In this document: piece by piece, positions 35,815-64,000 of the stretch
How the letters are laid out: every line of letters begins with the position of its first letter
Numbering within the stretch: the stretch's first letter is position 1
Translations under genes and position numbers: made by a program
Source: Haliotis rufescens
Taxonomy: Eukaryota
DNA: 64,000 nucleotides
Reading direction: 5' to 3'
NCBI RefSeq assembly: GCF_023055435.1
Contig: NW_025964001.1
Location: 21,018,001-21,082,000, forward strand
The notes under the pieces: generated by a model
The model's database searches: none
Seen by the model: only the letters and a program-made list of their open reading frames with translations
Told to the model about the DNA's origin: nothing

Positions 35815-37039
35815 TACGTGACGAAAGAAAAACGATGGCGGCAAAATAACGTGTCACCGTGAGGAGCACCCCCAAAAATCAATTCTTAGGTTAAACTGTA
35901 AGCTTTGGGACAATGACAGGTGCGCTGAAAGCTGGGTTGCCGTTACGTGTTTTGCTCGCCCACAATGCTGAGTGCGATTTACGGTACACTCAGGCTGTCG
36001 GTCCGGCCTACAAATAACTGACCCAGTTTTTCCACAGACATACACTCTATGCAACAGTCTCGTCGCCGGGAAACAGCCGTTACGGTCCGTTACGCATCAA
36101 TTACGTAACATGACATGGCACAGGCGACCTCGCGCGACCGCAGCAAGCGTAACACACGCCCCTCAGAGAATGACCCGAAGTGAACTTTAAAGATCTGCTT
36201 TTACCCTGGAGCTTGAATTTCAGTGATGAACATTCGTCGTTGTAGATAACACATGCATTGTACCCATAGCCTGTTTAAATTGACATTCGAAAAGGAGTTT
36301 TCATAAAATTGCAATAAAACTGTTAAAGTGACTTTAGAAGACAAAACTTGACGTTGTTTCCTGGATGTGGATAATTGTCACCTAACACATTCTCGTCACC
36401 GTAAACAAATAATTTTCGGTAAAAAGTTACATTAGCAATACTGTAGTCCACTTCCTCGTCTCTTAAGGCAGTGATGTAACACGTGATTCAAGATAGGGTC
36501 GTGATAGTGGCTACCCTACATTTTCCGTGTCCTCGGGTTCGCAATCTGGAAAAGTACTTGTAATGACACGATAAACCTAAACGTGATTTCGTCACCACCA
36601 ATTATCTACACTGGCAGATTTCTTGTCTATTTCGAATCTGGTGAAGGATTAATTATTAATAGGAAGTTATCCAATAGTGCAGCTTTAAATCAAGCTCTTC
36701 TCCAATCGAAACTGGTCGGTATCGCAACGTCTGTTCGCTTCGCTGCATGACATCGGTTGTGCGATGCGGACAGATTGTTTTGATCTGTTTTTGCCTTGAT
36801 TGACCCCCCCAGGAACTGTCAGTGCCTTGGTCGATGGCGTGGGACCCCACGGAATCGTGTGGCACCCCCGGGAGTAGAGTTGGTGCCCACTGATGTCCTC
36901 TAAGACCGAGAAAGGGGACGGGTAAGATCGCGACTCGCCTTCATCTTGCCATATCACTGCGTCGCTTTTGACAGTAGTGTCGGGAGGACACGCATGACAA
37001 GCCCCTTAGACTTGTGTCCCTCTGGTAACAGTAAAATTT
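35815..37039 (+). promoter_or_regulatory. CpG-rich putative promoter and 5' UTR
   Basis: Repeat-free and CpG-dense. CCAAT at 36598, 36671 and 36702; ETS-like CACTTCCT near 36449; GATGGCGGC near 35834. Lies upstream of a GTAAGT donor at 37120. Confidence 0.5.
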
Positions 37040-37119
37040 ATGGTATATTGCAGGCACAGGGACACAGACATTGATCAGGGGGAGGGCATGTCCGTGGTCC
37101 ATGATCGCGTCCATACACG
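37040..37119 (+). CDS. Candidate first coding exon (MVYCRHRDTDIDQGEGMSVVHDRVHT-R), unknown gene
   Basis: ATG at 37040 after an in-frame TAG at 37007; second in-frame ATG at 37088; consensus donor ACG|GTAAGT, phase 2. Confidence 0.45.
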
Positions 37120-39436: not shown

Positions 39437-41577
39437 GTGTGTGTTATAGTACCTAGTGTGACATAAGAGTTCCTGTGATATATTCAGTGTGATATAGGGT
39501 CAACGTTTGCTTTGTAGTGTAGTGTGACATAAGGGTCACTGTTTACTACATAGTGTGACATGAGGGTCACTGTTTGCTACCTATTTGATTAAGGGCCAGT
39601 GTTTTCACATTGTGTGACATAAGGTCAGTGTTTGCTACATAGTGTGACATAAGGTCAGTGTTTGCTACATAGTGTGACATAAGGTTAGTGTTTGCTACAT
39701 ACTGTGACTTAAGGTCAGTGTTTTCTACATAGTGTGACGTAAGGTAAGTGTTTGCTACATAGTGTGACATAAGGTTAGTGTTTGCTACATAGTGTGACTT
39801 AAGGTCAGTGTTTTCTACATAGTGTGACTTAAGGTCAGTGTTTTCTACATAGTGTGACTTAAGGTCAGTGTTTGCTACATAGTGTGACTTAAGGTCAGTG
39901 TTTGCTACATAGTGTGACATAAGGTTAGTGTTTGCTACATAGTGTGACTTAAGGTTAGTGTTTGCTACATAGTGTGACTTAAGGTTAGTGTTTGCTACAT
40001 AGTGTGACTTAAGGTTAGTGTTTGCTACATAGTGTGATGTATAGGTCAGTGTTTGCTACATAGTGTGACTTAAGGTTAGTGTTTGCTACATAGTGTGATG
40101 TATAGGTCAGTGTTTGCTACATAGTGTGACTTAAGGTTAGCGTTTGCTACATAGTGTGATGTATAGGTCAGTGTTTGCTACATAGTGTGACATAGGTCAG
40201 TGTTTGTTACATAGTGTGATGTATGGGTCAGTGTTTGTTACATAGTTTGACATAAGGTCAGTGTTTGCTACATAGTGTGATGTATAGGTCAGTGTTTACT
40301 ACACAGTGTGATGTATAGGTCAGTGTTTGCTACATAGTGTGATGTATAGGTCAGTGTTTGCTACACAGTGTGATGTATAGGTCACTGTTTACTACACAGT
40401 GTGATGTATAGGTCAGTGTTTACTACACAGTGTGATGTATAGGTCAGTGTTTGCTACACAGTGTGATGTATAGGTCACTGCTTACTACATACTCTGATAT
40501 AAGGTTACTGATTACTATATAGTGGGACGTATAGGACATTGTTTACTACATAGTGTGATGTATAAGTAAAGGTTTGCTACATAATGTGATGTATATGACA
40601 TTGTTTACAACATAGTGTGATGTAAAGGTCAGTGTTTACTACATAATGTGATGTATAGGTCAGTGTTTTCTACATAACGTGGCAAGTGTTATATGAGTTC
40701 AGTGTTTGCTACATAGTGTGAAGTAAGGTTAGTGTTAGCTACATAGTGTGACATAAGGTCAGTGTTTTCTACATAGTGTGACATAAGGTCAGTGTTTGCT
40801 ACATAGTGTGATGTATAGGTCACTGTTTACTACATAGTATGATGTATTGGCCACTGTTTACTACATAGTGTGATGTATAGGTCATTGTTTACTACATAGT
40901 CTGATGTATAGGTCACTGTTTACTAAATCGTGTGATGTATAGGTCATTGTTTACTACATAGTGTGGTGTGTAGGTCACTGTTTACTACATAGTGTGATGT
41001 ATAGGTCCCTGTTAGCTTTATAGTTTGATATGAGGTCACTGTTTGTTACATAGCGTCACCTTAGCTCACTGTTTACTACAGTGTGTCACATTAGGTCAAT
41101 GTTTTCCTACATAGTGTGATGTATAGGTCACTGTTTGCTACATAGTGTGATGTATAGGTCACTGTTTTGCTACATAGTGTGATGTATTGGTCATTTTTTG
41201 CTACATAGTTGTATGTATAGGTCACTGTTTTGCTACAAAGTGTGATGTATAGGTCATTGTTTACTATATAGTGTGATGTATGGGCCACCGTTTTGCTACA
41301 TAATGTGATGTACAGGTCACTATTTGCTACATAGTGTTATGTATAGGTCATTGTTTACTACATAGTGTGGCGTATAGGTCACTGTTTACTACATAGTATG
41401 ATGTATAGGTCACTGTTTACTTCATACCGTGGCGTATAGGTCACTGTTTGGTACATAGTGTGATGTATAGATCACTGTTTACTACATAGTGTGATGTATA
41501 GATCACTGTTTGGTACATAGTGTGATGTATAGATCACTGTTTACTACATAGTGTGATATAAAGGTCTTTGCTACATA
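39437..41577. repeat. 30/31-bp satellite array, ~70 copies
   Basis: Units GTGTTTGCTACATAGTGTGACTTAAGGTCA (30 bp) and GTGTTTGCTACATAGTGTGATGTATAGGTCA (31 bp). Confidence 0.97.
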
Positions 41578-45053: not shown

Positions 45054-45948
45054 AGCCTTTGTTAATATGATTGGAAACAAACATTGTTTCTTCAAAATAT
45101 TTCTTTTCCAAGCCCCACTTTCTGTCAGTGTTAACATGTATACTCAGAGCAAAAAATCAAAATAGTTAATGCAAATAAGAAAAACTGGGGAAATATTATC
45201 TTATTGGAAGAATATAACTTTATTTGACAGAGATTGCTTAAATTTGACATTATCTTGCGTATGAATAGACACAATCGTTTCTTGTCAATAATGATTGAAA
45301 ATCCCTTAGCAGGAATGCATTATATTAATGCAAATATGCTGTTGAATGTTCATATTGTAACCATGATTTAACATGACATCATTGATTTTTATATGAGGTC
45401 CTATTTTATTAAGAAGGACATGTCTGTAGTATGTACTGGAAAAAACCTAGAAGCGTGTGTAGTAGAGAGTCACAGCTTGGCTTCATGGCAGTGGTTAGTT
45501 GGCCCCATGGTGGGTGCTGTAGTTTATTGTGGCCTGCGTCCTGGTGGAAGAAAGTCCAAAGCACCAAAGCAAAAGTGTTCTTGAAATCAAATAATAGGAG
45601 CTTGAGCGATGATCCGTTGAATTATTTAAGTTGTATCTCTGGTGGTACGCTTTCACGCCAAGTGCAACCAGCCAAGGGGAGAAAAGGTGGATAATGGCAT
45701 CTATCCTGTCTCACTGCATGGGTAGCTTTTTAAATGTATTTTATTGGTGCCTGGTGAGTATATGATAAGATCTTGTTGGTTGATATGTGAGTTATTACAT
45801 GTTGGTACTAGTATTGGTTCATCTATACCTGTCGCGGATGGTGAAATGTGCTCTCTGTTTGTGTTGAATTATATAGTTCCTGTTACCATTATGAAATTTG
45901 CTGGGTTCCCTATTCACATGGTCTTACATCAATTTTTTGTATTTTCAG

Positions 45949-46056
45949 TGGTCACCAGTCGAATGCTCAGTCTCAATTATTTGCCACTGCTGGTTGTTCA
46001 CCTACTTCCTATAAGGATGCCTGGATCTTTGACATGGCCAACCCAGCCAAGCACAG
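45949..46056 (+). CDS. Candidate internal coding exon (GHQSNAQSQLFATAGCSPTSYKDAWIFDMANPAKH), 108 nt, phase 2/2
   Basis: Strong acceptor TTTTTTGTATTTTCAG, donor CAG|GTAGGT, length divisible by 3, open frame compatible with exon 37040-37119. Confidence 0.55.
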
Positions 46057-46412
46057 GTAGGTCCACACCTACGTTATATACCAATACTGCCAAGCACAGG
46101 TAGGTCCACACCTATGTTATATACCAATACTGCCAAGCACAGGTAGGTCCACACCTACGTTATATACCAATACTGCCAAGCACAGGTAGGTCCACACTTA
46201 TGTTATGTACCGATACTGCCAAGCACAGGTAGGTCCACACCTATGTTATGTACCAATACTGCCAAGCACAGGTAGGTCCACACCTATGTTATGTACCAAT
46301 ACTGCCAAGCTCAGGTGGGTCCACACCTATGTTATGTACCAATACTGCCAAGCACAGGTAGGTCCACACCTATGTTATGTACCAATACTGCCAAGCACAG
46401 GTAGGTCCACAC
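46046..46412. repeat. 43-bp minisatellite, ~8.5 copies, containing the exon/intron junction
   Basis: Unit GCCAAGCACAGGTAGGTCCACACCTATGTTATGTACCAATACT. Confidence 0.97.
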
Positions 46413-47338
46413 TCTCATTATGAATGATACATATCCACTGCACCTCCAAACCGGGTTCAAACGTAATTCGGACCATAATGCATTTGGGGCTGGTCACGTG
46501 ACCCCTTTTGGAAACCATACCATGTGTTATAGATATATGGAAAGCTTTTGGAAATGTGCATTTGACACTATCACTAAATATGTCAAAACTACCAAAATAA
46601 AAACTTTATAGCCATTTGAAGTTATGAAAAATAAAAATTCCCAGGGATTTTTAACTGTGTATCAGTTAACGCCTCATAATTAAAGACCAAGGGCGAAAAG
46701 CCCTTAACAGTATGGCATCAGCAGAAAGAGCAGATCCTGGGCACTAATATCAATACAGACAAAGAAATGCCAGGGGGAATAAATGGTACAAAGAGTTTTT
46801 TAAAAAAAGGAATAAAAAGGAAGAAGTCTACTCACATACATATAACGTGGCAGAAGTCTATGCAGAACATTTCCCCAAATTACAGATACATTTTTGAGAT
46901 CCCTAGGGTATCCCTGTGAGTGTGTAAAAGAAACTAGTAATTTGACCTACATGTAATTCAAGGGATTTACCTGGCTTATTCCGATATGACCCTAATTCTA
47001 AAAATAGTTGTTGTAACCCCAGGCTGTTATAAGGATATACCAACTGTGCAATGATTCCACACACTAACATACTGGAAATGTCAATGATGTGTCAAAATGA
47101 GATTTAGCAAGGTCTTTAAATGTTTAAAACAGCAGTTCTGGGTCTCAAACAAAGACCCCCGATTATTTTCAATAGAATGTGTTTCAACTGTTTGTTAATG
47201 AAATTATCAAGTTCTGTGCTTGATATTATTAAAGTTAATCACTTTATCAACAATACTTCTTTTAACAACAGTTGTCAGTACTGTGGTCCAAATATGGTGC
47301 TACAGTTTTTACTTAACCTCAGGTGTGATAATCATAAC

Positions 47339-47431
47339 GTGGCCTAGTGGTTAAAGTATTTGGTCGTTGCACCAAAGACCTGGGTTCAATTCCCGACATG
47401 TGCACAATGGTATCCCCTGCCGTGATATTGC
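47339..47431 (+). mobile_element. Family A SINE, 5' part
   Basis: GTGGCCTAGTGGTTAAAG...GGGTTCAATTCCCGACATG...CCCCTGCCGTGATATTGC. Confidence 0.8.
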
Positions 47432-48268
47432 CTCACCAGTGTAATGCCTTTTGAAGAGCGGCAGTCATGCAACTCTAAGTGTTCATGGTAAGGGCTGCGA
47501 GCNNNNNNNNNNNNNNNNNNNNNNNNNNNNNNNNNNNNNNNNNNNNNNNNNNNNNNNNNNNNNNNNNNNNNNNNNNNNNNNNNNNNNNNNNNNNNNNNNN
47601 NNNNNNNNNNNNNNNNNNNNNNNNNNNNNNNNNNNNNNNNNNNNNNNNNNNNTAAGAGCACCAGTCATGCAGCTCCAAGTGTTCATGGTAAGGGCTGCGT
47701 GCCAGGAACTGTGACATCACTCACTCACTCAATCCTAACACCTCAACAGTGTAATACCTCTTTAAGAGCGCCAGTCATGCAGCTCCAAGTGTTCATGGTA
47801 AGGGCTGTGTGCCAGGCACTGTGACATCACTCACTCACTCAACCCCAACACCTCACCAGTGTAATGCCTCTTTAAGCTTTAAGAGCGCCAGTCATGCAGC
47901 TCTAAGTGTTCATGGTAAGGGTTTTGTGTTAGGAACTGTGACATCACTCACTCACTCACTCCCTCAACAGTGAAATGCCTCTTTAAGAGCGCCATTCATG
48001 CAGCTCCAAGTGTTCATGGTAAGGGCTGTGTGCCAGGCACTGTGACATCACTCACTCACTCAATCCCAACACCTCAACAGTGTAATGCCTCTTTAAGAGC
48101 GCCAGTCATGCAGCTCCAAGTGTTCATGGTAAGGGCTGTGTGCCAGGCACTGTGACATCACTCACTCACTCAACCCCAACACCTCAACAGTGTAATGCCT
48201 CTTTAAGAGCGCCAGTCATGCAGCTCTAAGTGTTCATGGTAAGGGCTTCGTGCCAGGAACTGTGACAC
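47432..48268. repeat. ~110-bp tandem repeat with an internal N-gap at 47503-47652
   Basis: Period 110 (47747 to 47857; 48078 to 48188). Confidence 0.95.
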
Positions 48269-50212
48269 ACTGTCTAATTCTCTGATGCTGCCTGCTTGAA
48301 TCGATCCGTCACACACAGATGAAAATGTTGAGGTTTGCAGCAGTCAGTTAAGGCTCTTTAAGTGGTTAAACTCCAAGTGTGCCTTGAATTAACAAAGAGC
48401 AGAAAATTCAATTTCTGGAGATTGTCCCCTCGTCGTAGCATCTATCTTGAAGTGGTGGCAGGAGTAATCAGCCGAGATCGTGTTGCCTGGTTACCTCTAT
48501 ATTCCTGCTAATCTTTTGGATCCATTGTTAACTCCTTTGTAGAGTGTGTGACCCATGTTTGACATTTTTTGGGCGACTGCATGAAAATTTCGAAAGGTTA
48601 ACTAGGATGTTCTTTGAATATTGGGTTATCAAGGTCAGGGTCAATAAACTACGGCCTGATTAACAACTGCCGGCAGTTTTATTTCAAGGGAGGATGATGT
48701 GTCTCCTTGGACAAATTTCAAGATCATCATCACTGAAATAAAATTTTAATGCTTTCTTGGATGAGTGAAAAAGAAGATTTCAAAGAACCATTTTATGTTA
48801 TAATAGTGAATGAGGAAGTGATTGATGATGTTGACAAAAAGTGATAGATTATCATGATCAAAGTCTACCCATGGTGCTGATTTTCATGATAGTCAGTGAC
48901 CGATCTTTTGGTATTCTGGAGGGGGCATGGAATTTTGTATGGAGACTAGATATATTTTTCATTATAACTATGAGCCAAAATATATATATATATATATTTA
49001 TTTATTTTAAACAACTTGCAACAGTGTATATTTTGTGGCTGACAATCTCATTTTTTTCAACAGTCTGAAACAAAATTATTTTTTGATAAAACCCCAGCCC
49101 CCCCGATTTTCAAATGGTTGGTCCCAAGTAACAAAATTTAATTACAGTGAAGGTTACGTACATGTGTAAGACCAGTAAGAAGACCTGGTATCAAAATCAT
49201 GATAACACGAAAATGGTAAGATAATGATAACAATGTCATTTGTGTTAATCATAATGAAACTTGAAACAACAGTAATGGAGTATGTAAGGTTTCCCCTTGA
49301 AACACATAAGGTTCAGAGTCCAAAATAATTTGTTTTTTTGTTTTTCATATCTAGACTTACAATTAGTCTCTGAAATGAAAATATTTTACAGAATAAACAG
49401 TTGTTAAATTATCTTTATAAAATATAATAAATAGGAACCAGGAGACTCTCTTCATTTTCTGAAACTGCAGTAATCTAGACTTGCTAACTACTATAGACTT
49501 GCTTCGGATCATTGGATATATTTGTTTCACAAACCTTCATGTAAAATATTTTATATGTATGTCTCATTTTGCAAATGTTAAGTTGTCGGTAGTAAATTAT
49601 ATTACAGATTTAAGACAGTCACTGATAATATATAAATATGCAAAGAAACAATATCTCTACCTTGACAGGTTATTAACTGATCTGCAAATTTAAAACATTA
49701 TTTGACGTATAATTTGGAAGACGGGTAGTCCCTGACCACATGGACTTCTGTGGTTATGTATACCGTGGTTGAACATCATGTGACTAAAATAGAATATTTT
49801 TAAAAAAACTTGTTTCAGGGTTTGTATGACAGATATCTCATATCCTACTGACCCTACTGACCCAGCAATCAAACAGGTCAAACAATTCTTGACCATATTT
49901 GTTTATAAACCAACAAAATGTCGATGATGATGGGTATCACTCCATAGTGTGTCCCTATCATTTCATCTATAAGGCCTTATTTTGTCGGTTGGCTTACAAA
50001 ACAGACCAACCCAAAAAATGACATTAGAAAAATGACTTTTTACAAAAATATTTTAGTTAGGTAAAAAGAAAATAAGTGCTGTTCATAAGAATATGTGTAA
50101 AAATCTTAATTCTAACCAAAAAAACAACCAGTTATCTTTTGCAATCGTTTTGCAATCATAATTGTGTGATGGTTTGACCTGCAAGTTCATTGGTAGCAGT
50201 TCTAGGCTAGAA

Positions 50213-50343
50213 GGGGCGGTCAGGTAGCCTAGTGGTTAAAACGTTCGTTCGTCACACCGAAGACCTGGGTTCGATTTCCGACATGGGTACAATGTGTGAA
50301 GCCCATTTCTGGTGTCCCCCGCCGTGATGTTGCACTCATTCAC
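50213..50343 (+). mobile_element. Family A SINE with 12-bp TSD and shortened tail
   Basis: TSD TCTAGGCTAGAA at 50201-50212 and 50344-50355. Confidence 0.95.
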
Positions 50344-50706
50344 TCTAGGCTAGAAATGGGATTTTAAAAATATATTTTGCTCGACCACCTACACTGAATT
50401 TTAGATATTCAAAAAATATTTTGTAGTCCAGCTAATAAGAATAAAAAGCCTAATGAATGTTGACTATAGTTTGATCTGCAAAGATCAGTGTGCCTACTCT
50501 ACCCAGTTCTGAAATGTCATGTCCGGTATGGACAAGCTAATATATTTTTAAGGATTATCTGATCTATGCTTGTTGTCCCTATATGACAACACGTAACATC
50601 ATTAAACTGATTTGAATATCAGTATTCTTCTAATCAGCCATACTGATTCTGCCAATAGGTAATATATCCAATATACTGATTCACATGTTGGTTTTCCCCT
50701 TATCTT

Positions 50707-50760
50707 ACTACTACTACTACTACTACTACTACTAGTACTACTACTACTAATAATAATAAT
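50707..50760. repeat. (TAC)n(TAA)n microsatellite
   Basis: Direct observation. Confidence 0.95.
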
Positions 50761-50761
50761 T

Positions 50762-50921
50762 ACCAACGGGATCAGGTGGTGAGGCTCGCTGACTTGGTTG
50801 ATGCATGTCATCGTATCCTAATTGCGTATCAATCTCTAGTTTGTCTGGTCCAGACTTGATTATTTACAGACATCCGTCGTATAGATGGAATATTCCTGAG
50901 TGTGGTGTTAAAACAACAAAG
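50762..50921 (+). mobile_element. Family C retroposon, partial
   Basis: AACGGGATCAGGTGGTGAGGCTCGCTGACTTGGTTGATGCATGTCATCG...GGAATATTCCTGAGTGTGGTGTTAAAACAAC. Confidence 0.85.
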
Positions 50922-51471
50922 AAAATAATATCAAATATACTGATTTATATTTAATTATCCTCATCATTAATGGTTCTAATTCACATATCAGTTTATTTCT
51001 ATTTAAGAAATAATATCAAATATACTTATTTATATATGTTCCCCACATGAATAAGCAGCATTAAGGGCTCCCATTAACATGTGAGCTTTTCCTATTTCAC
51101 AAGGATTATTAATGGTAAAGACTGCCCCTTGATGCCACTAGGTACCATATAACCCCTCCATATTGTGGGCAGTTGCTTCCAGTAAGGACTATAAGACTTC
51201 CATTTCAAGTGATGATAAATGTACTGTGGGTGTAGACTCCTGTCAGCCATTAAAACCCAGGTTCTGCTTGACATTTATGGTGGCAGGGTTACCAAGTGAG
51301 ATTGTCCAGACAGTGAACCAGTAGCCTTGAAACAACTGTAGTAGCTTATGGATGCCTTATGGCTGATGAGAAGAACTTGCCAACATGGGAGACATCTTTC
51401 AGTCTTACAGTTTTCCTACTCTTTATGTTTGGAAGTGGGTTATCTTTGGATGAGTGGTGTCGATTTTACTA

Positions 51472-52059
51472 CAGTCTCATTAAAATCAGATCTTAGTTCT
51501 CACTACTGCTGAGCAATGACCTGAGGACATCCCAGTACAGGTCACTTCAGCACGACACTTTTGCGAACATTGACCGACCAATGAAATTACTGACAAGAAA
51601 ACGATATTAGCCAATCGGAAAACAGCTTTACCAAGCTATAATCGGCAATAGTTGCAAACTGGTGACTTCCTCTCCAGACTATGCTTTATCAATATTTTGA
51701 CAAAGTTCTCAATTCAAAACTTGAAAACTGAACAAAAGGACATTCTGGAATGTCTAACAGATGGCCGACAGTACTTCCCACATCTCTGTTGCTCAAATGT
51801 TTATCCAACTGAAGTGAGTGATAGACGATGATTTTGACGGAATCAGTCGTACAGTCCATAATTGTCATTCGGAATGCCCCATGTTAACCTTTTAGAGGTT
51901 ACATGATTAGAAAACACATTCTGACTGTCAGTTTCTCGATCTGTTAAGTAACGCTCTGATTGGTCGGATGAAAGGTCGTTCTGACATGACTCGTAATGGG
52001 ATGTCCTCAGGTCTTTGTGTAGCGATAGCGAGAACTAAGAACTGATTTTAATGAGATTG
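51472..52059. mobile_element. MITE with long (>80 bp) TIRs and a near-perfect 9-bp TSD
   Basis: CAGTCTCATTAAAATCAGATCTTAGTTCTC...GACCTGAGGACATCCCA is inverted against TGGGATGTCCTCAGGTC...GAGAACTAAGAACTGATTTTAATGAGATTG; flanks ATTTTACTA / ATTTTACTG. Confidence 0.9.
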
Positions 52060-52649
52060 ATTTTACTGTGGAAGAATATTTCCTAAGAAAATCTTCATTT
52101 CTATAATTCAGCTATGACATTTTGAGTTGTACACCAAAAAACATTCTGTCCCCAAGACCCAAGAGAATAAATGAAAAAAGGAATCCAATTCAAGTCTAGA
52201 AAGACTTAGCAAGTCTAGATTGCCTCAGCTCTAACTTAAGCATTGTTCTGATATTCATTTAGATTTTATTTTTATTTTGAAGATATATATATTTGTAAAT
52301 AAGATGACACATTATTTCTGGGACTAAATGTTAGTCTAACCAGAAATATACACTGTAGGTTTAACACTGTACCCATGTGGGAATAGAGCCCAGGCTTTGG
52401 CTACAACCTGCTCCAGTTGCCTTTTGAAGTATGTAAATCACACACATATGTAAATGTCAAGGTTAACCACCCCCAAGTACCAGATAGGCTAAATGTTTAG
52501 GACCCTGTATTCTCTGTATTTAATACTCTGTCAGTAAAGTGTCTGTCCATTTTTTATGACCTTCCTAAAACTGTACGCTGATTCTCTTCCACCCATTGAC
52601 TGTAGTTGGCCATAATGAGATCCTACACTAAAGTTCCTAATTGTGGCTC

Positions 52650-52902
52650 TTGTTTATTTGTTTGTTGTTTAATGCCACACTCAGCAATATTCCAGCTATA
52701 TGACGGCGGTCTGTAAATAATCTTGTCTGGACCAGACAATCCAGTCATTGACATCATGAGCATTGATCCACGCAATTTGGATACGATGATGTGCATCAAC
52801 CAAGTCAGTGAGCCTGACCACCCGATCCCGTTAGTTGCCTCTTACGACAAGCATAGTCACTTTTTACGGCAAGCATGGGTTGCTGAAGACCTATTCTAAC
52901 CC
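52650..52902 (-). mobile_element. Family C retroposon, nearly full length
   Basis: Colinear with 26602-26864; lacks about 15 nt at the 5' end. Confidence 0.92.
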
Positions 52903-53810
52903 TTGTGAAGTTTCAGAAGCATGACTTATAGTCATTCCCCACTGCTCATCATGCAGATTACACATGAATTAGAGGCCCTCAATGGCTGCTTGGTACTGAT
53001 ATAGTAATTCCGTCGGAGGACATCTTAGCCTTCTCATCTATGAAGGTGCTGATCTGTAATAGCACAGTCTAGGAGGTTTCAACTTTTATCGACTCGTGTT
53101 GAAGATGTTGATGTATTTCATATCAAAGGAAATGAGGGTGAGATTTTATTCATAATCCAAAATCATTCAGCCAACTTTTTTCAGTTCATAAATAGTAATA
53201 ACCAGTGTGAAAAGTATAGCTAATCAGCTTCAGTGGCAGAGAGTTAAGTGATGTTATTTGATTGTGATGTTATGGTAATCAATATTCGACAAAATGGTCT
53301 GCAAAGTATTGTGACTTCATTGTAGCAACATCTCCTAGGAGAACCTAACGGCTAATATGCTGACTCCACCTAGCATTATCCAGATACCCATGAACATAGT
53401 TTTCAAACCTAGGGCCATTCTGTTCAGAATAGGTCCCCAGCACTCGCTCACTCGCTCGCCCACCCTCCTGCCTGCTTGCATGGTTGCTCCCCCAAACACT
53501 GATTAGCCCACCCACCCACTCATTCACCCGCCACCCACACACTCCCTCACACCCATCTTTAGGTATACTTCTTAATGAAAAACCATTTAAGGTTGTCATT
53601 TTCATGAATTCTTACATTGCCCATTAAGTTGTATGCAGAATCCTTTGATGTGTTTTACAACATCTATCATATAGGTTTGAGAATTCCCCCTGACAAAGCC
53701 TGTATGAAAAGTGAAGGCTCATTTATCACAGGGGGACGTAAATGTCGACAGGAGGATTGTAATGCACCTCAGACTATGGCCAACACAATTTATGTTTCTG
53801 ATTGAGATAA

Positions 53811-53928
53811 GGAGTAAGTATGGTTTTACGCCGCTTTTAGCAATGTTCCAGCAATTCCACGGTTGGGAACACCAGAAATGGGCTTCACACATTGTACCCG
53901 TGTTGGGAATTGAACCCACGGCTTCGGC
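53811..53928 (-). mobile_element. Family A SINE, 5'-truncated
   Basis: GGTTTTACGCCGCTTTTAGCAATGTTCCAGCAAT...CACCAGAAATGGGCTTCACACATTGTACCC. Confidence 0.88.
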
Positions 53929-56656
53929 CCTCCGCCCAATTTTCTGATTGCGACTAATAATTAATATATGTTCCAACTTATCTTTACAGTTTCAGATAGA
54001 TAAAAACATTTTACTCAGAAGCCAATTATTACAATGATTACCATTGAATAGTGTGGAAAAGATATGGAAGATAAAGCCTTAATGTTTAAGGCTTGTTACA
54101 TAGATTTGTTATCATTTTTATGAAGGTTCAAGTAACAGCACATGCATGATTTTACCTTCATCCATCACTTATTTTCTGAAAGAGCCACCCAAAATATTGT
54201 TGTTCTTTCTTTGTTTTCCAATATATTCTAATCAATAAATAGGTGTTAGCTGAAAAAACTTGAAATATCGAATAAATTCAATATACTGCCAAAATAAAAT
54301 ATTAGATTTTCGGCCTATTTTTCCATAAATGTGAGGCTGGAGGCCTTATCTGTACTGTATAGATGTGTATTGTTAAACAATCTGTTCAAGGCATCTGTGC
54401 ATGTCAGATGTCGACATATGTCATGCAGCATGGATGTTTTCTGAAGTAAAAAAAGAAGTTGACTCGCACAGTATTTTGCTTTGTCTGTAGGTACATTGGG
54501 ACAGTAAAATGGTGATATTGGTTGTTTGGTAGTTAGATGAGCAGGGATGAATATCTTATTATTTATTTTTACGACCTAGACAACTAAATTTGTAAAATAT
54601 TAACTCCAATTTAATAACACATCTCGTTGACGTCACGACTTATTAACGACACAACCCAACAAATGATAGACTGCCTGAACAGTTTTGTTTAGTTTACAAA
54701 AATCAGTACTTCTTATTCATTCATATTTCCTATGAATAAATTCCTCTTATGAATTATTGTGACATTTTGTCCTTTGTGCCAAATATTTTGATTGAAATTC
54801 ATTGTTTTTCAGCAAATTATCTCCAAGATGTGATTTGCTTGAATATTCATCACTGGAAAATGAGAGCAATTATTTCGCTTCATTAGTCCATATGTTGGGG
54901 GTAAATCCAAGCAGATCAAAGTGACTTAATAAAACTGTGAGCAGTTAACCCCCAAAGTTGGCAAGGGGAACTACGGGGTTAAATTGACTAGCTCTTAATA
55001 ATAATCAATGAATGATTTGTTGTGTAGCTAGGCTGACTGACCGTTGGGAGGGGAAAATCCAATTAACCCAAGAGGCGTCTCTCTTTGGCAGTGATGATTA
55101 CTTTCTACAGAAAATAACCACTGATGACATCGTGTGATTTAATAATGATAGGGACAAGCCTGTCGCTCAACTTCTTATGTCCTCGATGTCCCTAGAGCCG
55201 CAGCGGCCCCCGAACAAATTCACGTCTTTGTGTGTGAAATTAGTTTATCAACATACAAACTATCTGAATAATCTAATTACTCAATTATTGAAATAGAGTG
55301 GAAATAAATTACCAGCTTGTTAGAGACCATACTAATCTAATCAGGACCTGAAAATGAAGTGAACGCTCCAACCCTTCTGTTTCTGGTGTGGTAATGGAGT
55401 GAAATACAGATAGATATTGTGGAGAATATGGCAGCATTTATTCTGAGTAATGGCATCACTTGATTAGGGCTTAGGTCGAAAATACTTCCCAACACTTAAA
55501 TTTGTGAATTAAGTAAGAAAACGAACACTAATCAAGTGTTGTTGGATCTTGGAGTCATCCGAGGCGAATTTATCACATGAATGACCGGAGGGATTTTGTC
55601 CATAAGCATATAAGTTAAGAGCGGATGGGAATGTCATTTTGGGGAAGGCGGTTTATGTTGTGATGATGGTAAGCAGGTCAGAATTGTCTGTCAACCAGAG
55701 CGGTGGTACCGAGTATGTTTCATGTGTTGGCTGCCTACACCGCTTCAGCACACGTTGAACCAAAATTTCAACATTCCTGGTGAGTTCCGTTTCAAATTGG
55801 TTTATAATAACAGATTAGTTTTGAAATACGGTTTTAGTTGAAATTTAATCTAAAGCCATTTATGGTCGTGCTGATGACGTTGTTGTTTTGTTTGGTGTTT
55901 ATTAGACTTTATTAGTTTTGGTGGTACCTAGTCTTCATATTTTCATTCTTTGGGGATGCTTTCAAAATATGTAATCTTGGGATATTCTTAGGGACTTTAT
56001 TGAATAGTTTGTCATGGTAGTATTTCTAAAAGAGGAAATGTTTTGAGCGTATCCAGGTTTGTACATTGAATTTCACTGTATGTTTATTAATTACAGAAAC
56101 TTTGGTTGGTATGAACAAGAATGGAAAACAAAATGATGTAGCTCACTATTTATTTTCAAGCAAGCATCTAGTTTACGTTTGGTTGGGGGGGTGGGGGTGA
56201 TGTCGGGTGTGTGTGCAAAATAGTGCTGAATCTGTTTAAATTGCAGGATGTTTGCTATTTTTGCAGTACAAGTACAATGGGATGTCATTGATTGAACATT
56301 TTAATAATGATGTACAGATTAAGAAGTATCATGATACATTGATATCTCAATTAATAATCATATTAATTATTCTGTATAAATGAATTAAGTAAATCTGCAC
56401 TTTAATGCTTAATTTGGACTGGGCTGACCCATTTCATGTTTAAAATTGAATTTTCTGCTTCCTCACTGTCCATCTTAACCATGGTAATCTGGATAAATTA
56501 CACCGTTTCTGGGGCAGTGAATTATAAATTTAATGTCAATATTTTTGAATTTGTATGAGCACAGTCTCGATATTTATTATTTTGTATTAATACAGTATCT
56601 ATATTCATAATTTGTGTCAATACTTTATCAGCATTAAAAAGTTCCTAATACATCAA

Positions 56657-56848
56657 GTCCCGTGAAGATTCCGGGGTAGAATAGTTCTTCAGCAACCCAT
56701 GCTAGCCATAAAAGGTGACTATGCTTGTCTTAAGAGGCGACTAACAGAATCGGGTGGTCAGGCTCGCTGTCATGGTATCCCAATTATTTACAGACTGCCT
56801 TCATATAGCTGGAATATTGCTGAGTGCGGAGTTAAACAACCAACCAAT
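56657..56848 (+). mobile_element. Family C retroposon with internal deletions
   Basis: Head GTCCCGTGAAGATTCCGGGGTAGAATAG, two 22-nt modules, tail ATATAGCTGGAATATTGCTGAGTGCGG. Confidence 0.88.
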
Positions 56849-57340
56849 ATACTTTGACATCCCTACAAGTACAGGTATATGTTGTTTCCTTCTTATGCGT
56901 TGCAGACAAAGTGGCAGAGGCAAGTTTAAATACTTATAGATGTATCTATTTTTCTAATTCATCAAACATTAAATTGTAATAAAGATAGAGCTAAATTAGA
57001 TCACATTTGAATTATGCTTACCTATTAAACTGTAGAAAATTGAAACCGTTCTTTAATCATTTAAGTAATAGTTAGTTTCATTTTGAATGGAGCGTGTTTC
57101 TCGTACTGACAAGAAGGAATACTGTAAAGCCAACCAGAATGTATAATTAAGGTTTTCGATATGCCCTTTCACATTAGATGTGTCCAGATTTAAGGAATAT
57201 AAGAACTGAATTCTAAGAACATAGGTTTGTCTGCTACTATTGTGACATCATATAACTGTTGACAACAATGACAGATGTGTTATTATATCAGTTATCACTT
57301 TGTTAACATACAGAATGCTGTTCAATCACTGAAATCATTG

Positions 57341-58530
57341 TTATCCCCCCCCACGTAGAGTGGGTTGGTGGATATAGGAACTGAGTTCATCCGTCCGTTT
57401 TTCCATCCGTCCATCTGCATCTTAAAGGGGACAAATTTATGGCCCTTGCTCCATGCTTTTCAACCTGGTGCATACTGTGTAAAATGGGGAAACGTTTTCT
57501 CTTAAACTACGAAAACTACATGCATGGAAGTTTGCATGCTTTTATAAAAGATACTTATCAAGATTCAGTTAGAAAATTGGTGCCGTAAATTATTATTTTA
57601 CAGAGTTATGGCCCTTGCTCCATGCTTTTCAACTTCGTGCATACTGCGTGAAATGGGGACAAGTTTTCTCAGGAACTACAAAAATTACATGAATGAAAGT
57701 TTGCATGTTTATAGAAGAGAAACTTGTCAAGACTGAGTTTGAAAATTGGCATCTTCCCGAGGCAAGGGCGTTAACTGACTGTCAAAGTCCAGTTTCCACC
57801 CTTGCTGAGCTAGGCTGGAATTTCTGGACTCGATCGTAGAGCCACCAGTGGCTATTACAAGTAATGTCCCTTCTACGTCCTTTCTATTGACCAATCAGAT
57901 TCCACCTCTCATATCACTTACACTGGCGCCCAGTCAAGATGATCTGATTGATCATCAAGATGTAAATTGTAATAAAACGGGTCTTAGTTCACAAAGTGCA
58001 TCAAAACACATTAGAACCATGATCAAAAACATGAAAAGATTTATAAAATATCTGTTAACACCGAATTGACAGCATGCATGCTTTGCAAATCCTGCAATCG
58101 ACCAAAATCTGCACGGCAGTTTGCGAACTGGATGTCGAGTTCATTACACACTTTTGATTGGACTATGCATAGACTCGTTAGTACAGCCAAAATGTAACTC
58201 CATAATTCCAACCTAGTTCGGCAAGGGTTGAAAAGGGACTTTTATAGTCAGTTAACTCCCTTGCCTCGGGAAGATGGAAAATTGGTGAAAAGCTGATCAG
58301 TTGAAAAGCATGGAGGACAAGTCTTCTCAGAAACTACTGAAGTGACATGAAGGAAAGTTTGCATGCATATCTAAGAGATACTTGTCAAGAACGAATCTGA
58401 TGACATAAGTGACGCTAGTGCCTCTTCCTTGTAGGAGTCTTCTTTTTTAGTTTATATTCACTACTATTTGAACAAATAAAATTCTAATGTGCCCCATGGC
58501 GGGGGATAGTGATAACACTGTTTTCTTGTT
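57341..58530 (+). mobile_element. HINE / pearl(CvA)-like non-autonomous Helentron-type element with ~169-bp internal repeats
   Basis: 5' TTATCCCCC and 3' GGGGGATAG subterminal inverted repeats; TCCG/TCCA microsatellite near the 5' end; tandem units beginning TTATGGCCCTTGCTCCATGCTTTTCAAC at ~57437 and ~57606; 3' end CTTGTT. Confidence 0.8.
57750..58276. mobile_element. MITE with ~75-bp TIRs and a perfect 9-bp TSD, nested in the HINE
   Basis: CATCTTCCCGAGGCAAGGG...CCCTTGCCTCGGGAAGATG; TSD GAAAATTGG at 57741-57749 and 58277-58285. Confidence 0.95.
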
Positions 58531-59239
58531 GCATGTGTGCTTCATATATACTTTAATTTACTTGAACTATTGGGATAATGATTGTTGATATGTCATATGA
58601 TGTGGGAATTGCATGTAACACACAGATCCCAAACTGCATGAATGGCAAGGACAGTAATTATGTTTGTTTGAATCATTACAACATTGGCTGTTGTAGAAGA
58701 AGTTTCTCTTGACTATTTCGCCATGTACAAAAAGTTTTTGTCACAATTAAACCCTGAAATGTTAAAATTCAAACTTGCAATGCATATTTTTTGGGGGGTC
58801 AGTTCGTTGACAGGTAGGACATGTGAAATTCCCCATGAAGATCTGCTGCTTATTTAATTATTATTGAAACTTAGAAAAGACTCAAATTAAATAGTTATTT
58901 TCTAAAAGTTTTTCTTAGAAGAAACAAGACCCAGCAAGTTGGAACGTTTTCAAAAAAACATCCAAATTTTGTGTTGCTGTATGGTAGCTTGAATGTTTAT
59001 CTGGTACTCATAAGTTTTTGCAGAGAAAAATGGGGAAAATCCATGTGGGGGTAGTTAAAAAAGAAGATCAGCATATTTAGTTCTTTTCTGTTTTTTAATC
59101 TTGATTAAACTTAATGGTTTTGACCATATCACTTCTTCTCACAGTACAGTCTGCAGAAGTTGTGTGATTTAGAATGGAATCATTTTTGTCCTGATGATAA
59201 AACATCCAACTGGCTGCCATGACTTCATTTGACATTTGC

Positions 59240-59507
59240 CCTTGACCATGCCCTAAAAGGCCGGGGGTATATAGTTATACCAAGGTTCCGTCCGTCCGTC
59301 GGTCCGTCCGTCCAAAAACTTTGTCCGTGCAATTTCTCTTAATTATTCAGTGGATTCATCTCAAAAAGAAAAGAAAAAAATTGATTAATTTTCCATTTTT
59401 TAATGAATTTTTCAAACCCTAACCCTATCCATTATTTAATTTGAAACTACTGACACACTAGGCGGGTCGGGGGTATTAGTGAGCCACGCTCACTTTTGCC
59501 CTTGTTT
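59240..59507 (+). mobile_element. Short HINE-like element
   Basis: GGGGGTATATAG followed by (TCCG)n; 3' GGGGGTATT, hairpin AGTGAGC-CAC-GCTCACT, then CTTGTT. Confidence 0.7.
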
Positions 59508-59832
59508 CTTGAATTATTGTGACAGCCATAAAGCTAAAAACCTTGATGCTATTAGAATAATAAAAAATTAAATGAATACTTATAAGATGTGTGTTTGTGT
59601 GTGTGCAACACACATAAGCAAGTTTATTCTTCAATCTCTGAACTTGTAAGTTAGTTTATTAGGCTTTGTATGTATGTCCGTGTGTATAAACAGCAGAGGA
59701 AGATTGTTACATAGATGCTGTCGTCTATTCTTGTTAAATAAGTTCATCTCATAGCGACCTCTCAGACGTGGTACTTTCATGATGTGAACATGTCATTTGG
59801 TCAGTAAAATCAAACGTTCTTCTTCACATTAT

Positions 59833-59996
59833 GTGAGTGAGTTTGGTTTTACACCGCTCTTCTAGCAATATTCCAGCAATATCACGGCGAAGGACATCAG
59901 AAATGGGCTTCACTCATTGTACCCATGTCATTAATCGAACCCGGGTCCTTGGCGTGATGAGCTAACGCTTTAACCACTAGGCTACCTGACTGCCCC
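59833..59996 (-). mobile_element. Family A tRNA-derived SINE, full length
   Basis: Reverse complement of the 43106-43280 consensus. Confidence 0.92.
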
Positions 59997-61118
59997 TTCA
60001 TAAAGATGTAATTTCTCAATTGTCTAAAAACCACAGTGTCATTGAAGTAGACCGACAGTAGTTCTCTAAGGGACCCCCAGTAATTAATCTTAAGGATCCT
60101 TTTAAGTAATGAAATGGTGTAGTGTACTGTACCTTTTGATAATTACTTTAGAGCCTGGAATGAATCAATGATAGTGTGGACAGTGGTCATGATTGATGGA
60201 TGAAATAACAGACATCCATAACTGCTCTTGATGCGCTGTAGGTACAATGAATATTGTTGTAGTATATTCTTTTCTGTGTTCAATCTCAACATTTGTGCGT
60301 ACTGGATGCACATTTGTGTGCCGCGTAAATCCCTGGTTCTCTCATAAGGAGTTAATTAATTTTTCACTTGAGTGAAATAACAATTTTATATTTTCAGGTA
60401 AAATATGGTCCAGGTAAATACATTGAAAGTAGCAGCATCGTAGGCACAAAAGCTCACACACAAACACACACACAAGCCCCCATGCAAGTAAACACACAAA
60501 AATAAGCATATATGATATAAGTGGCAACACTCTAACCCCACCAGAGATATATTAACATCAAAAGGAATTTTTGGAATGAGAATGTTATTCTGTGGCGTCT
60601 TGTGGTTGTAAAAGGTTGACCTGATCTATCATAGCTACTTCCAGGGATTGTGGGAACAGAGAGAGTGTGTTGTGTACTGTCATCAAGCTGTGCAGAAACT
60701 TCTTGTGGTACACAGCATGTCATGGTGGTAGAAAATAAACACAAGTTCAACATGCACACTGAAAATCTTAAACCTGGTATGAAAAATGATCTGTGTAAAC
60801 ATCTGTTTATGTTTTCTTGACTGGGTAAACAGGGGGTAAAAGTGTTACGTAACTGGTGGCCAGATGACTGACGTTTCATGCAGTTTTTGTGACATGTTCG
60901 TCCTTCTTATGTTAATGAATTGTTTATTGGCCAGAGATGTTACAGAACCTGTAATCTAAAGTTATAACAAGTGGTATGGGAGATGAGGTTCCCGCTGAAC
61001 GCTGGGAAAATCTGTCAGTGTTCTAAAGGGACATGCTTTGTATTGTTGTTCTTGGTTTAATGCAGTCTGTGATGTATCCATGCCCTGTCTCGTGCTGTGT
61101 GTCTTCATGCAGTCTTTG

Positions 61119-61327
61119 GACCCGTAAAGGTCCGGGGTAGGAGGCGACTAACGGGATCGGGTGGTCAGTCTTGCTGACTTGGTTGATGCATGTCATCGAT
61201 CCCAACTGCATGGTTCGATGCTCATGATATCAATCACTTGATTGTCTGGTCCAGACTCGATTATTTACAGACCACCATCATATATCTGTAATATTGCTGA
61301 GTGCGGCATTAAACAAAAAACAACAAC
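61119..61327 (+). mobile_element. Family C retroposon with a deletion in the head
   Basis: GACCCGTAAAGGTCCGGGGTAG joined to GAGGCGACTAACGGGATCGGGTGGTCAG; tail present. Confidence 0.9.
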
Positions 61328-62110
61328 ATTCTTGTTTTCTAAAAATAATTAAAATATGCTTAAATGTCTTGCACAGAGAAGGTTTTCTAAGAAAAACAAG
61401 TTTATAAATGTGTAAAGTTTCTATGTAGAGAGTTTCTTTCATAAAGCACTCCCTGAATGTGAAAATTATTTTTGGACTTTTCAATTTGGATGCATTTAGG
61501 TGCATGTCTAACAGAGAGAGGTCTATTTTGAAACCAAGTGATGATTTGTTAATGAATATGTTGTATGGAGTAAGCCTTGATTGAGGATAATTTTGATTTT
61601 GGAAAAAAGAATAGTTTACTTCAACTAACATCTCCTGAACCAATGTAGCCTATGATGCTTAAACATTGCATGGATGGTCCTACCAAAAGTGTCTCAAATA
61701 TTTCTGATAAAATTCAGATTTTAAGGTTGACATTGCCACATAACAAGGTAGTCTTCTTAGAAACTACGAGACAAGAGAGCTACACTACATTAGGGTTTTG
61801 TAGGTTAGGTTAAGAATAAATATTTTTATATTCAGAGGTTGTACTTGTGTAAAAGATTATAAGTTTATTTTAGGCACTAACAGCTGCAATAAACAAGCCA
61901 TTGTTGACGAGGTTGCAAAAATACATAATTTTAGATCTCAAAACATGAATTGTTGTTACCATTACAATGAAATAATATTACACTGACACCATACTGTCCT
62001 TTCACATCAAACAGACCACATTACAAAGCCAATTAAAATTAACACTCTCCTTACTAGATGGCGAAAGATTGCACTACATACACTGTTCAGCTTGCATTGA
62101 TTGTAGAGGC

Positions 62111-62339
62111 ATTGGTGGCCCAATCATCAATTCTCTGTGCACAGTCCTGTCCCTGAGAAACCTATGATTGTGGGTTCGAATCCCACTTGGCCCATGTTAT
62201 ATTTCTAGGTTTGTCAGCACCATACCCGTGGCCATGTTTTACCATAAGTGTTGAAGGTCTTAAACCTACATCACTTCGGGCTTTCCTCTGAAATGAAAAT
62301 TTCGCTACCTGATATAACTAAAATCACTCACTCACTCAT
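62111..62339 (+). mobile_element. tRNA-derived SINE (family D), degenerate
   Basis: B-box GGTTCGAATCCC near 62173; GGGCTTTCCTC and GATATAACTAAAAT near the 3' end; (CACT)n tail. Confidence 0.65.
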
Positions 62340-63045
62340 ACACTTGTACCTGGTGAGCAGCAGTGCTTTGATCTCAACATGTAATTGACATTGTATACAG
62401 GAGTGCTGTGATGCTATTTCTTAAATGATTGATAAGCATCATTATACATGGATGTTTTCTAAACCCACAAATTCACATAAAAACTTTTAAAAGATCAAAA
62501 GAAATTCATGCAAATAATACCTCCATAGGTTTGCATTTATTGAATTCATTGAATTAAATACCTTGGTGGATATCAAAGTCAATCATGACGAGGTCCTTTT
62601 ACTTCAAATTCAATTTCTTGAATGTCTATTGATAAGTTGCTTGTACATGTATGTCGCTTCATTTTCTCAGTCAGGATGAAAGGGATGGGTTATGTCATAA
62701 TAAGTGTATCATTATTATTGGAAGATAAAAAGATGGACACACAAGTGACCCAGACAGTTATCATGAATGGACAATCTTTTTTCATTTTCCAAAAGGTTGC
62801 ATTGCCTTTCTTTCTTGTGCGCTCGCTCAATGCCAAATAATCCGAGAGCCACTTAGCTCACTGATTGATTAAAAAGCAAATCCCATCCATATGAGAACCA
62901 TCAATCACATTTCTCTAGTCCAAGGATCAACTTGATTTCTCGATGCCAGTTGGATAGGAAATTTATTCATAGGTACCTCATGCCTGTAAATTGTTGACTG
63001 TGGCTCTTTCTCCTCATCCATCAAATCTAGAGAGAGACCTGGCCG

Positions 63046-64000
63046 AGATGCTGGCTGTCTGGATCTAAACATGTAATACGCATAGTATACAGCGATGCCG
63101 ACTGCCTGGATCTAAACATGTAATATGCATAGTATACAGCGATGCCGACTGTCTGGATCTAAACATGTAATACGCATAGTATACAGTGATGCTGCCTGTC
63201 TGGATCTAAACATGTTATACGCATAGTATACAGCGATGCTTTCTGTCTGGATCTAAACATGTAATATGCATAGTATACAGTGATGCCGACTGCCTGGATC
63301 TAAACATGTAATATGCATAGTATACAGCGATGCCGACTGTCTGGATCTAAACATGTATTATGCATAGTATACAGCGATGCCGACTGTCTGGATCTAAACA
63401 TGTATTATGCATAGTATACAGTGATGCCATCTGTCTGGATCTAAACATGTAATACGCATAGTATACAGCGATGCTTTCTGTCTGGATCTAAACATGTAAT
63501 ATGCATAGTATACAGTGATGCTGACTGACTGGATCTAAACATGTAATACGCATAGTATACAGTGATGCCGACTGCCTGGATCTAAACATGTAATATGCAT
63601 AGTATACAGCGATGCTGCCTGTCTGGATCTAAACATGTTATACACATAGTATACAGCGATGCTTTCTGTCTGGATCTAAACATGTAATATGCATAGTATA
63701 CAGTGATGCCGACTGCCTGGATCTAAACATGTAATATGCATAGTATACAGCGATGCCGACTGTCTGGATCTAAACATGTATTATGCATAGTATACAGCGA
63801 TGCCGACTGTCTGGATCTAAACATGTATTATGCATAGTATACAGTGATGCCATCTGTCTGGATCTAAACATGTAATACGCATAGTATACAGCGATGCTTT
63901 CTGTCTGGATCTAAACATGTAATATGCATAGTATACAGTGATGCTGACTGCCTGGATCTAAACATGTAATACGCATAGTATACAGTGATGCCGACTGCCT
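63046..64000. repeat. 47-bp satellite array, >=20 copies, runs off the window end
   Basis: Unit TGGATCTAAACATGTAATACGCATAGTATACAGCGATGCCGACTGCC; period 47. Confidence 0.98.

What the first reader, a model, noticed from the sequence alone, without database searches (positions are those of the whole stretch)
46046..46412. Minisatellite has amplified a 5' splice site nine times
Seen: the 43-bp unit spans the end of candidate exon 45949-46056. CAG|GTAGGT therefore recurs with intron starts at 46057, 46100, 46143, 46186, 46229, 46272, 46315 (GTGGGT variant), 46358 and 46401. Use of any donor except the first reads AGG-TAG, an immediate stop at 46058-46060. Inference: competing identical donors would produce NMD-targeted or truncated isoforms, so VNTR copy number could tune gene output. 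If translation starts further downstream, they would instead vary 5' UTR length.
Basis: partly seen in the sequence, partly recalled or inferred. Interest (0 to 1): 0.7.

Follow-up and report, generated by a model that had tools for sequence, protein, structure and literature searches.

The report
Splice-donor minisatellite in abalone trachealess
The end of a real coding exon of an abalone trachealess gene, splice signal included, is repeated eight more times into the next intron; the spliced transcripts seen use the first signal, so the extra copies are likely tolerated passengers of a kind already known from human and lancelet genes rather than a dial on gene output.

Summary
Observation confirmed. 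A single-locus 43-bp x 8.5 array (46046-46412) carries nine CAG|GTRGGT donors at the stated positions. The exon 45949-46056 is real and coding: exon 3 of trachealess-like (bHLH-PAS), present in RefSeq proteins of three Haliotis species and in Gigantopelta, always joined at donor 1. Of five probable-RNA assemblies laid, two splice donor 1 to exon 4, two read unspliced through donors 1 and 2, one does not reach the exon end; none shows a downstream donor, but contigs miss rare or repeat-internal junctions. The immediate stop is generic (6 of 6 phase-2 donors of this gene have it). The architecture is known: human F7 intron 7, CBS, lancelet 'mirages'. It is common here: a second donor-spanning array (108 bp x 14.7, stop-free in frame) lies in the same gene, 3 of 12 sampled consensus-donor arrays start at a coding exon end, and this scan found the same kind before on other DNA of this genome. 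Best reading: first donor wins, copies near neutral (0.72). Copy-number tuning through nonsense-mediated decay is unsupported but not excluded, since the donors are strong. Interest 0.2.

The parts
46046..46412 (+). 43-bp x 8.5 minisatellite spanning the exon 3 / intron 3 boundary (11 nt exon + 32 nt intron per unit; last copy is the 23-nt core only)
   Evidence: single locus in the genome
45949..46056 (+). trachealess-like exon 3, 108 nt, phase 2-2, residues 33-67 of P0002, just before the bHLH exon
   Evidence: conserved in Gigantopelta
45947..45948 (+). acceptor AG of intron 2
   Evidence: exon 2 letters as loose end before 45948 in X1, X7, X13
46054..46062 (+). authentic donor 1, CAG|GTAGGT
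   Evidence: exon 4 letters as loose end behind 46056 in X7 and X13
46097..46406 (+). eight pseudo-donors (intron starts 46100, 46143, 46186, 46229, 46272, 46315, 46358, 46401)
   Evidence: U1 duplex -11.8 kcal/mol, -11.4 for the 46315 variant; no junction seen
46058..46060 (+). in-frame TAG met on read-through of donor 1 (codon 69 from either first-exon ATG)
46057..46072 (+). predicted 6-bp hairpin over donor positions +1..+6, present in copies 1-8, absent from copy 9; not stronger than shuffles
36893..36921 (+). coding part of alternative first exon 1a
37054..37119 (+). exon 2 (66 nt), spliced to exon 3
46057..64000 (+). intron 3 (about 27.9 kb; continues past the window to exon 4 at G000:C223:21091991)

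Best explanation
This is a minisatellite that repeats the exon 3 splice donor of the abalone trachealess-like gene nine times, likely born by local duplication of the junction, and the extra donors are likely silent passengers because the first donor is the one used in the spliced transcripts seen. Shown: the array, the exon, its conservation, donor-1 splicing in two assemblies, single-locus unit. Inferred: the donor is older than the array (the same junction exists in Gigantopelta); a slippage or unequal-crossover event copied 23 nt of junction plus a 20-nt spacer, then amplified it; the spliceosome commits to the most upstream functional site as the RNA emerges (F7-type scanning / exon definition); any rare downstream product carries a stop at codon 69 and would be removed by NMD, so selection against the array is weak. 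The read-through contigs are inferred to be partly spliced pre-mRNA of a gene with a 28-kb intron.
For: X7 (4300-nt contig, depth 19) and X13 (depth 7.9) join exon 2-exon 3-exon 4 at donor 1; no loose end with exon 4 letters at donors 2-9 in 4 of 4 runs. P0002-P0005 (three Haliotis species) and P0007 (Gigantopelta) all show the donor-1 junction. F7: identical downstream pseudo-sites are functional yet unused, even when strengthened (PMC1557585); lancelet mirages do not disturb splicing (PMC3087553, PMC3902484 passages). The class is common here: second array in the same gene; 3 of 12 sampled AG|GTAAGT arrays start at a coding exon end confirmed by Pfam or PDB. X1 also covers unique stretches far down intron 3 (48513-48921 depth 13.8; 54372-56028; 60226-60663) and passes donor 9 unspliced (46384-46534), while the last 390 nt of intron 2 have no cover: fits pre-mRNA.
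Against: 2 of the 4 runs that cover the exon end (X1, X3) read through donors 1 and 2 and show no donor-1 junction at all. These donors are very strong, unlike the F7 site, and for duplicated strong donors the downstream one takes over at separations beyond about 30 nt and nearly fully at 45 nt or more (PMC3413131 passages); spacing here is 43. CBS and 6-16 arrays do use two extra sites (as cited in PMC1557585). All RNA evidence is assembled contigs with a guessed RNA label; steady-state RNA cannot separate 'not used' from 'used and degraded'. The spacer's origin from the flanks was not significant (9.5% of 1000 shuffles).
Confidence: 0.72

Rival explanations
1. One reading: downstream donors take a sizeable share of splicing, the products carry the stop at codon 69 and are degraded, so copy number sets trachealess output.
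For: Donors 2-9 are as strong as donor 1 by U1 pairing; extended exons stay 151-452 nt; proximity rule for strong duplicated donors; CBS and 6-16 use extra sites; F7 repeat number is listed as associated with FVII level in a review (PMC7849579 passage). X1 carries C>T at donor-1 position -3 (46054) and reads through.
Against: No downstream junction in 4 of 4 runs; X1 and X3 contigs run unbroken over donor 2 as well; F7 minigenes show no competition; copy-number variation not shown.
Confidence: 0.16
2. The array slows or blocks splicing at donor 1 (U1 crowding at 43-nt spacing, or the hairpin over each donor), giving a detained intron 3 in some tissues.
For: X1 (depth 15.7) and X3 (depth 6.1) have intron 2 removed or foreign sequence upstream of the exon but read into intron 3 with no exon 4 junction; predicted hairpin -7.2 kcal/mol over +1..+6 in copy 1, absent from the last copy.
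Against: Hairpin masking is within the range of shuffled units (13% and 20% of 300 shuffles reach it); a 28-kb intron gives the same picture from nascent RNA alone; library types are not on record.
Confidence: 0.08
3. Downstream-donor mRNAs are productive: the normal frame becomes a 68-codon upstream ORF and an ATG inside the last included unit restarts a protein with the whole bHLH-PAS core.
For: An ATG in frame with exon 4 lies 29 nt before donors 3 and 5-9; the stop is 204 nt from the start, near the zone where NMD can be escaped (recalled).
Against: Weak start context (C or T at -3, T at +4); a one-in-three chance frame; no such protein among the 5 cluster members or; needs downstream donor use, which was not seen.
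Confidence: 0.04

Closest known systems
Human F7 intron 7 37-bp VNTR (Borensztajn et al. 2006, PMC1557585; read abstract, introduction, first results section, discussion)
   Same: First unit spans the exon-intron boundary; 5-9 identical donors; similar period; only the first donor seen in spliced RNA.
   Different: F7 donor is weaker (UGG/gugggu) and holds 4 exon nt; here a near-consensus donor with 11 exon nt. F7 is shown polymorphic and tested in minigenes; this one is neither.
Lancelet 'mirages' (Adh3, globins BflGb6/9, troponin C, PGBD5; PMC3087553 and PMC3902484, passages)
   Same: Minisatellite-like tandem copies of an exon-intron boundary in a marine invertebrate, normal splicing kept, recurrent in the genome.
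   Different: Length instability is shown there, untested here; different phylum and gene.
CBS intron 13, 6-16 intron 2, lamin B2 and PDGF intron 4 minisatellites (seen only as cited in the introduction of PMC1557585)
   Same: Same donor-spanning layout; lamin B2 and PDGF use only the authentic donor.
   Different: CBS and 6-16 use two further sites, which was not seen here.
Trachealess / NPAS1-3 bHLH-PAS family (Pfam PF23171, PF00989, PF08447, PF14598 precomputed on P0002)
   Same: Host gene; exons 4 onward match P0002 at up to 99% in this genome.
   Different: Exon 3 is seen only in Haliotis and Gigantopelta among 19 N-termini compared.

Membership tests
Junction-spanning minisatellite (F7-type / mirage) | Tandem array whose first unit spans a real exon-intron boundary | tested here: met
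Junction-spanning minisatellite (F7-type / mirage) | Splice signal reiterated in the intron | tested here: met
   9 donors, 8 identical
Junction-spanning minisatellite (F7-type / mirage) | Local origin, not a dispersed repeat or transposon part | tested here: met
   8 of 8 genome matches lie in the array
Junction-spanning minisatellite (F7-type / mirage) | Authentic site used in mature mRNA | tested here: met
   2 of 2 fully spliced assemblies; 5 of 5 protein models with the exon
Junction-spanning minisatellite (F7-type / mirage) | Pseudo-sites silent | tested here: inconclusive
   0 of 4 runs show them, but contigs only; 2 runs read through
VNTR | Copy number varies between alleles | not testable with these tools
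   One assembly; run contigs collapse the array; metagenome scan found 0. Unit variants seen in X1 (46125, 46255)
Regulated unproductive splicing (AS-NMD) | A stop-bearing isoform is actually made and rises when NMD is blocked | not testable with these tools
   No raw mRNA reads or NMD-inhibited data offered
Regulated unproductive splicing (AS-NMD) | Stop placement is specific to the element | tested here: not met
   6 of 6 phase-2 donors among 14 mapped in this gene have a stop at the next codon
Trachealess-like gene | Exon in frame with bHLH and PAS exons | tested here: met

The most novel reading that the evidence does not exclude
Because these donors are near-consensus and 43 nt apart, the array diverts or detains a real share of trachealess transcripts (downstream donors plus NMD, or retained intron 3 as in X1 and X3), while a second, stop-free 108-bp donor array in the same gene could add 36-residue units between PAS-A segments; repeat length would then tune both dose and form of a developmental transcription factor, at one of many such loci in abalone.
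Probability: 0.1. Interest if true: 0.55.

Novelty: new member of a known kind. Interest (0 to 1): 0.2.

Why it matters
As it stands it is an ordinary example of a described class. Its use is as a test case: a strong donor duplicated at 43-nt spacing is where two published rules disagree (upstream scanning in F7 versus downstream preference for strong sites), and abalone offers many such loci in one genome. If copy number did set trachealess dose, it would be a simple heritable dial on a bHLH-PAS regulator in a farmed mollusc.

Tried and rejected
Kelch reading of the exon (Pfam Kelch_4, E 0.029, below cut-off): rejected once the gene was identified; PDB gave 0. The longer frame through the exon that looks like a signal peptide: no family, not the frame in RefSeq. 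The wide lay was swamped by dispersed repeats, so its joints and loose ends are cut. X6 covered only 45842-45976 and says nothing on the donor. Hairpin masking as a selected feature: not beyond shuffles for this unit nor for 11 other arrays. Spacer derived from flanks: inconclusive. Copies as recursive-splicing acceptors: rejected by eye, no pyrimidine tract before the repeated AG. Protein with the 108-bp in-frame insert: 0 of 172 candidates scored (weak). Other alleles in metagenomes: 0. Sacsin-like reading of L076/L077 is recalled only; Pfam and PDB did not confirm it, so they are not counted among the 3 of 12. Enrichment of arrays at donors: 2 of 14 donors here against 0.11 expected, but one was the selected finding, so not significant; 2155 versus 1304 control matches are overlapping hits dominated by long arrays. 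Literature on this locus: none in the listings (Haliotis, minisatellite, intron, splice; 2 papers, not read) or (trachealess, mollusc, bHLH-PAS, abalone; 7 papers, not read). No atlas result is available for the exon peptide. Supplements were not opened.

Full report
1. Observation. The array is there as described: 46046-46412, period 43, 8.5 copies, 96% matches. CAG|GTRGGT occurs nine times at the stated places and nowhere else in the window. Each unit holds 11 nt of exon end, 12 nt of intron start and a 20-nt spacer; the last copy has only the 23-nt core. Copies 1-3 share one spacer variant and copies 4-8 another, the polarity expected from stepwise local expansion (inference). The unit occurs only here in the genome. 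The region is rich in minisatellites: 48 arrays in 264 kb read.

2. The exon. Its phase 2-2 frame is residues 33-67 of Haliotis cracherodii trachealess-like, identical in H. rubra and one residue different in H. asinina, and clearly conserved in Gigantopelta, with the same junction into the bHLH exon. It was not seen in the other 14 of 19 N-termini compared. The gene runs from an ancestral-type first exon 2.5 kb upstream of the window, through an alternative first exon and exon 2 at 36893-37119, this exon, a 27.9-kb intron, and exon 4 onward. The organism is taken as Haliotis from these homologies. Both differences seen in this exon in run X1 (46015, 46054) are synonymous (with the frame). So the exon is coding, donor 1 is the old donor, and the 5' UTR alternative is unlikely.

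3. RNA. No holder is on record as RNA; 14 are guessed RNA and all are contigs. I laid 5 of them. X7 (4300 nt, depth 19) and X13 (depth 7.9) run exon 2 - exon 3 - exon 4 through donor 1. X1 (depth 15.7) joins exon 2 to exon 3 and then reads unbroken to 46114, with further pieces through the array and past donor 9 and in unique stretches far down intron 3. X3 has 163 foreign letters before 45948 (inferred to be upstream exons, not displayed) and reads to 46107. X6 does not reach the exon end. No loose end with exon 4 letters appears at donors 2-9 in the four runs. Limits: contigs drop rare variants; a junction contig leaving from inside the array may share only about 30 nt with it, and the shortest piece displayed was 35 nt, so donors 3-9 are weakly tested (inference about the method); degraded products would be missing anyway. 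Array sequence is present under three organism codes (A, B, C), so it is probably older than one population.

4. The stop. Read-through gives a stop at codon 69 from either first exon. This is not a feature of the repeat: 6 of 6 phase-2 donors among the 14 mapped in the gene have a stop at the next codon, because G|TAA, G|TAG and G|TGA are built into the donor consensus. By the exon-junction rule (recalled, mainly vertebrate) such mRNAs would be NMD targets.

5. Strength and structure. With U1 from this genome, the donor pairs at -11.8 kcal/mol; only 9 of 4244 GT sites in the window do as well and 8 are in the array. A 6-bp hairpin can cover +1..+6 in copies 1-8, but opening energy is within the shuffle range. 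An ATG in frame with exon 4 precedes donors 3 and 5-9 in weak context.

6. How common. The same gene has a second donor-spanning array, 108 bp x 14.7, outside the window, stop-free in the exon's frame. A genome pattern of three AG|GTAAGT at 33-58 nt period gave 2155 overlapping matches against 1304 for the reversed control. The first 100 rows were 12 arrays, all fetched; 3 begin at the end of a coding exon confirmed by Pfam or PDB (C2H2 zinc finger, calpain, N-acetylneuraminate lyase at E 0.006), 2 more look coding but were not confirmed, 7 show no exon. Earlier notes of this scan list at least six more donor arrays in this genome (unchecked).

7. Known systems. PMC1557585 (abstract, introduction, first results section, discussion) describes the same layout in human F7: pseudo-sites are functional but unused, only the most upstream working site is chosen; it cites CBS and 6-16 (two extra sites used) and lamin B2 and PDGF (none). 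PMC3087553 and PMC3902484 (passages) name the class 'mirages' in lancelets and report normal splicing. Against this, PMC3413131 (passages) reports near-complete use of the downstream of two strong donors at 45 nt or more. PMC7849579 (passages) lists F7 repeat number among variants associated with FVII level. PMC5954066 (ABCA7 VNTR) was seen as a listing only.

8. Verdict. A real, well-supported new member of a known and, in this genome, common class. Most likely the first donor wins and the copies are near neutral (0.72). Leak plus NMD (0.16), detained intron (0.08) and restart in the repeat (0.04) remain open because the donors are strong and two assemblies read through. Interest 0.2.

Noticed in passing
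L024:397-1985 (G000:C223:21122397-21123985): Second donor-spanning minisatellite in the same gene: 108 bp x 14.7, 37 nt of exon plus GAG|GTAGGT repeated 15 times, stop-free in the exon's frame; downstream donors would add 36-residue units in the PAS-A region and escape NMD.
   Followed up: partly
L026:7453-7547 and window 36893-37119: Two alternative starts: a mollusc-wide first exon 2.5 kb upstream of the window and an exon 1a + exon 2 pair inside it; both give 95 coding nt before exon 3. Exon 3 is symmetric and absent from other molluscs' models, so it may be a cassette exon.
   Followed up: partly
L072, L080, L081 (G000:C1): Donor-spanning arrays at exon ends of an N-acetylneuraminate lyase-like gene (46 bp x 43), a C2H2 zinc-finger gene (37 bp x 54) and a calpain (53 bp x 7); a paralogous pair L076/L077 (47 bp) looks similar but was not confirmed.
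   Followed up: partly
L023:1362-1447: Diverged partial copy of a downstream PAS exon (90% over 20 residues) with its own GTAAGT donor, 160 nt after another exon; possible pseudo-exon.
   Followed up: no
P0003 versus L024:397-433: The H. rubra model differs from the others exactly at the exon whose donor lies in the 108-bp array, partly reading that exon end in another frame; may be an assembly or annotation artefact.
   Followed up: no
window 32074-34378, 39520-41566, 47653-48271: Other intronic arrays on the sense strand carry weaker donor-like 9-mers many times (for example CAG|GTAACA x30, ATG|GTAAGG x6); the best U1 match of the window lies at 39744 inside one of them.
   Followed up: no
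G000:C46:11179277-11242436: Tandem U1 snRNA gene cluster, 42 scored copies, mostly at a 592-bp period.
   Followed up: no
window 46596-46816: Five AATAAA/ATTAAA hexamers within 400 nt after the array; intronic polyadenylation is possible, though X1 has cover beyond them.
   Followed up: no
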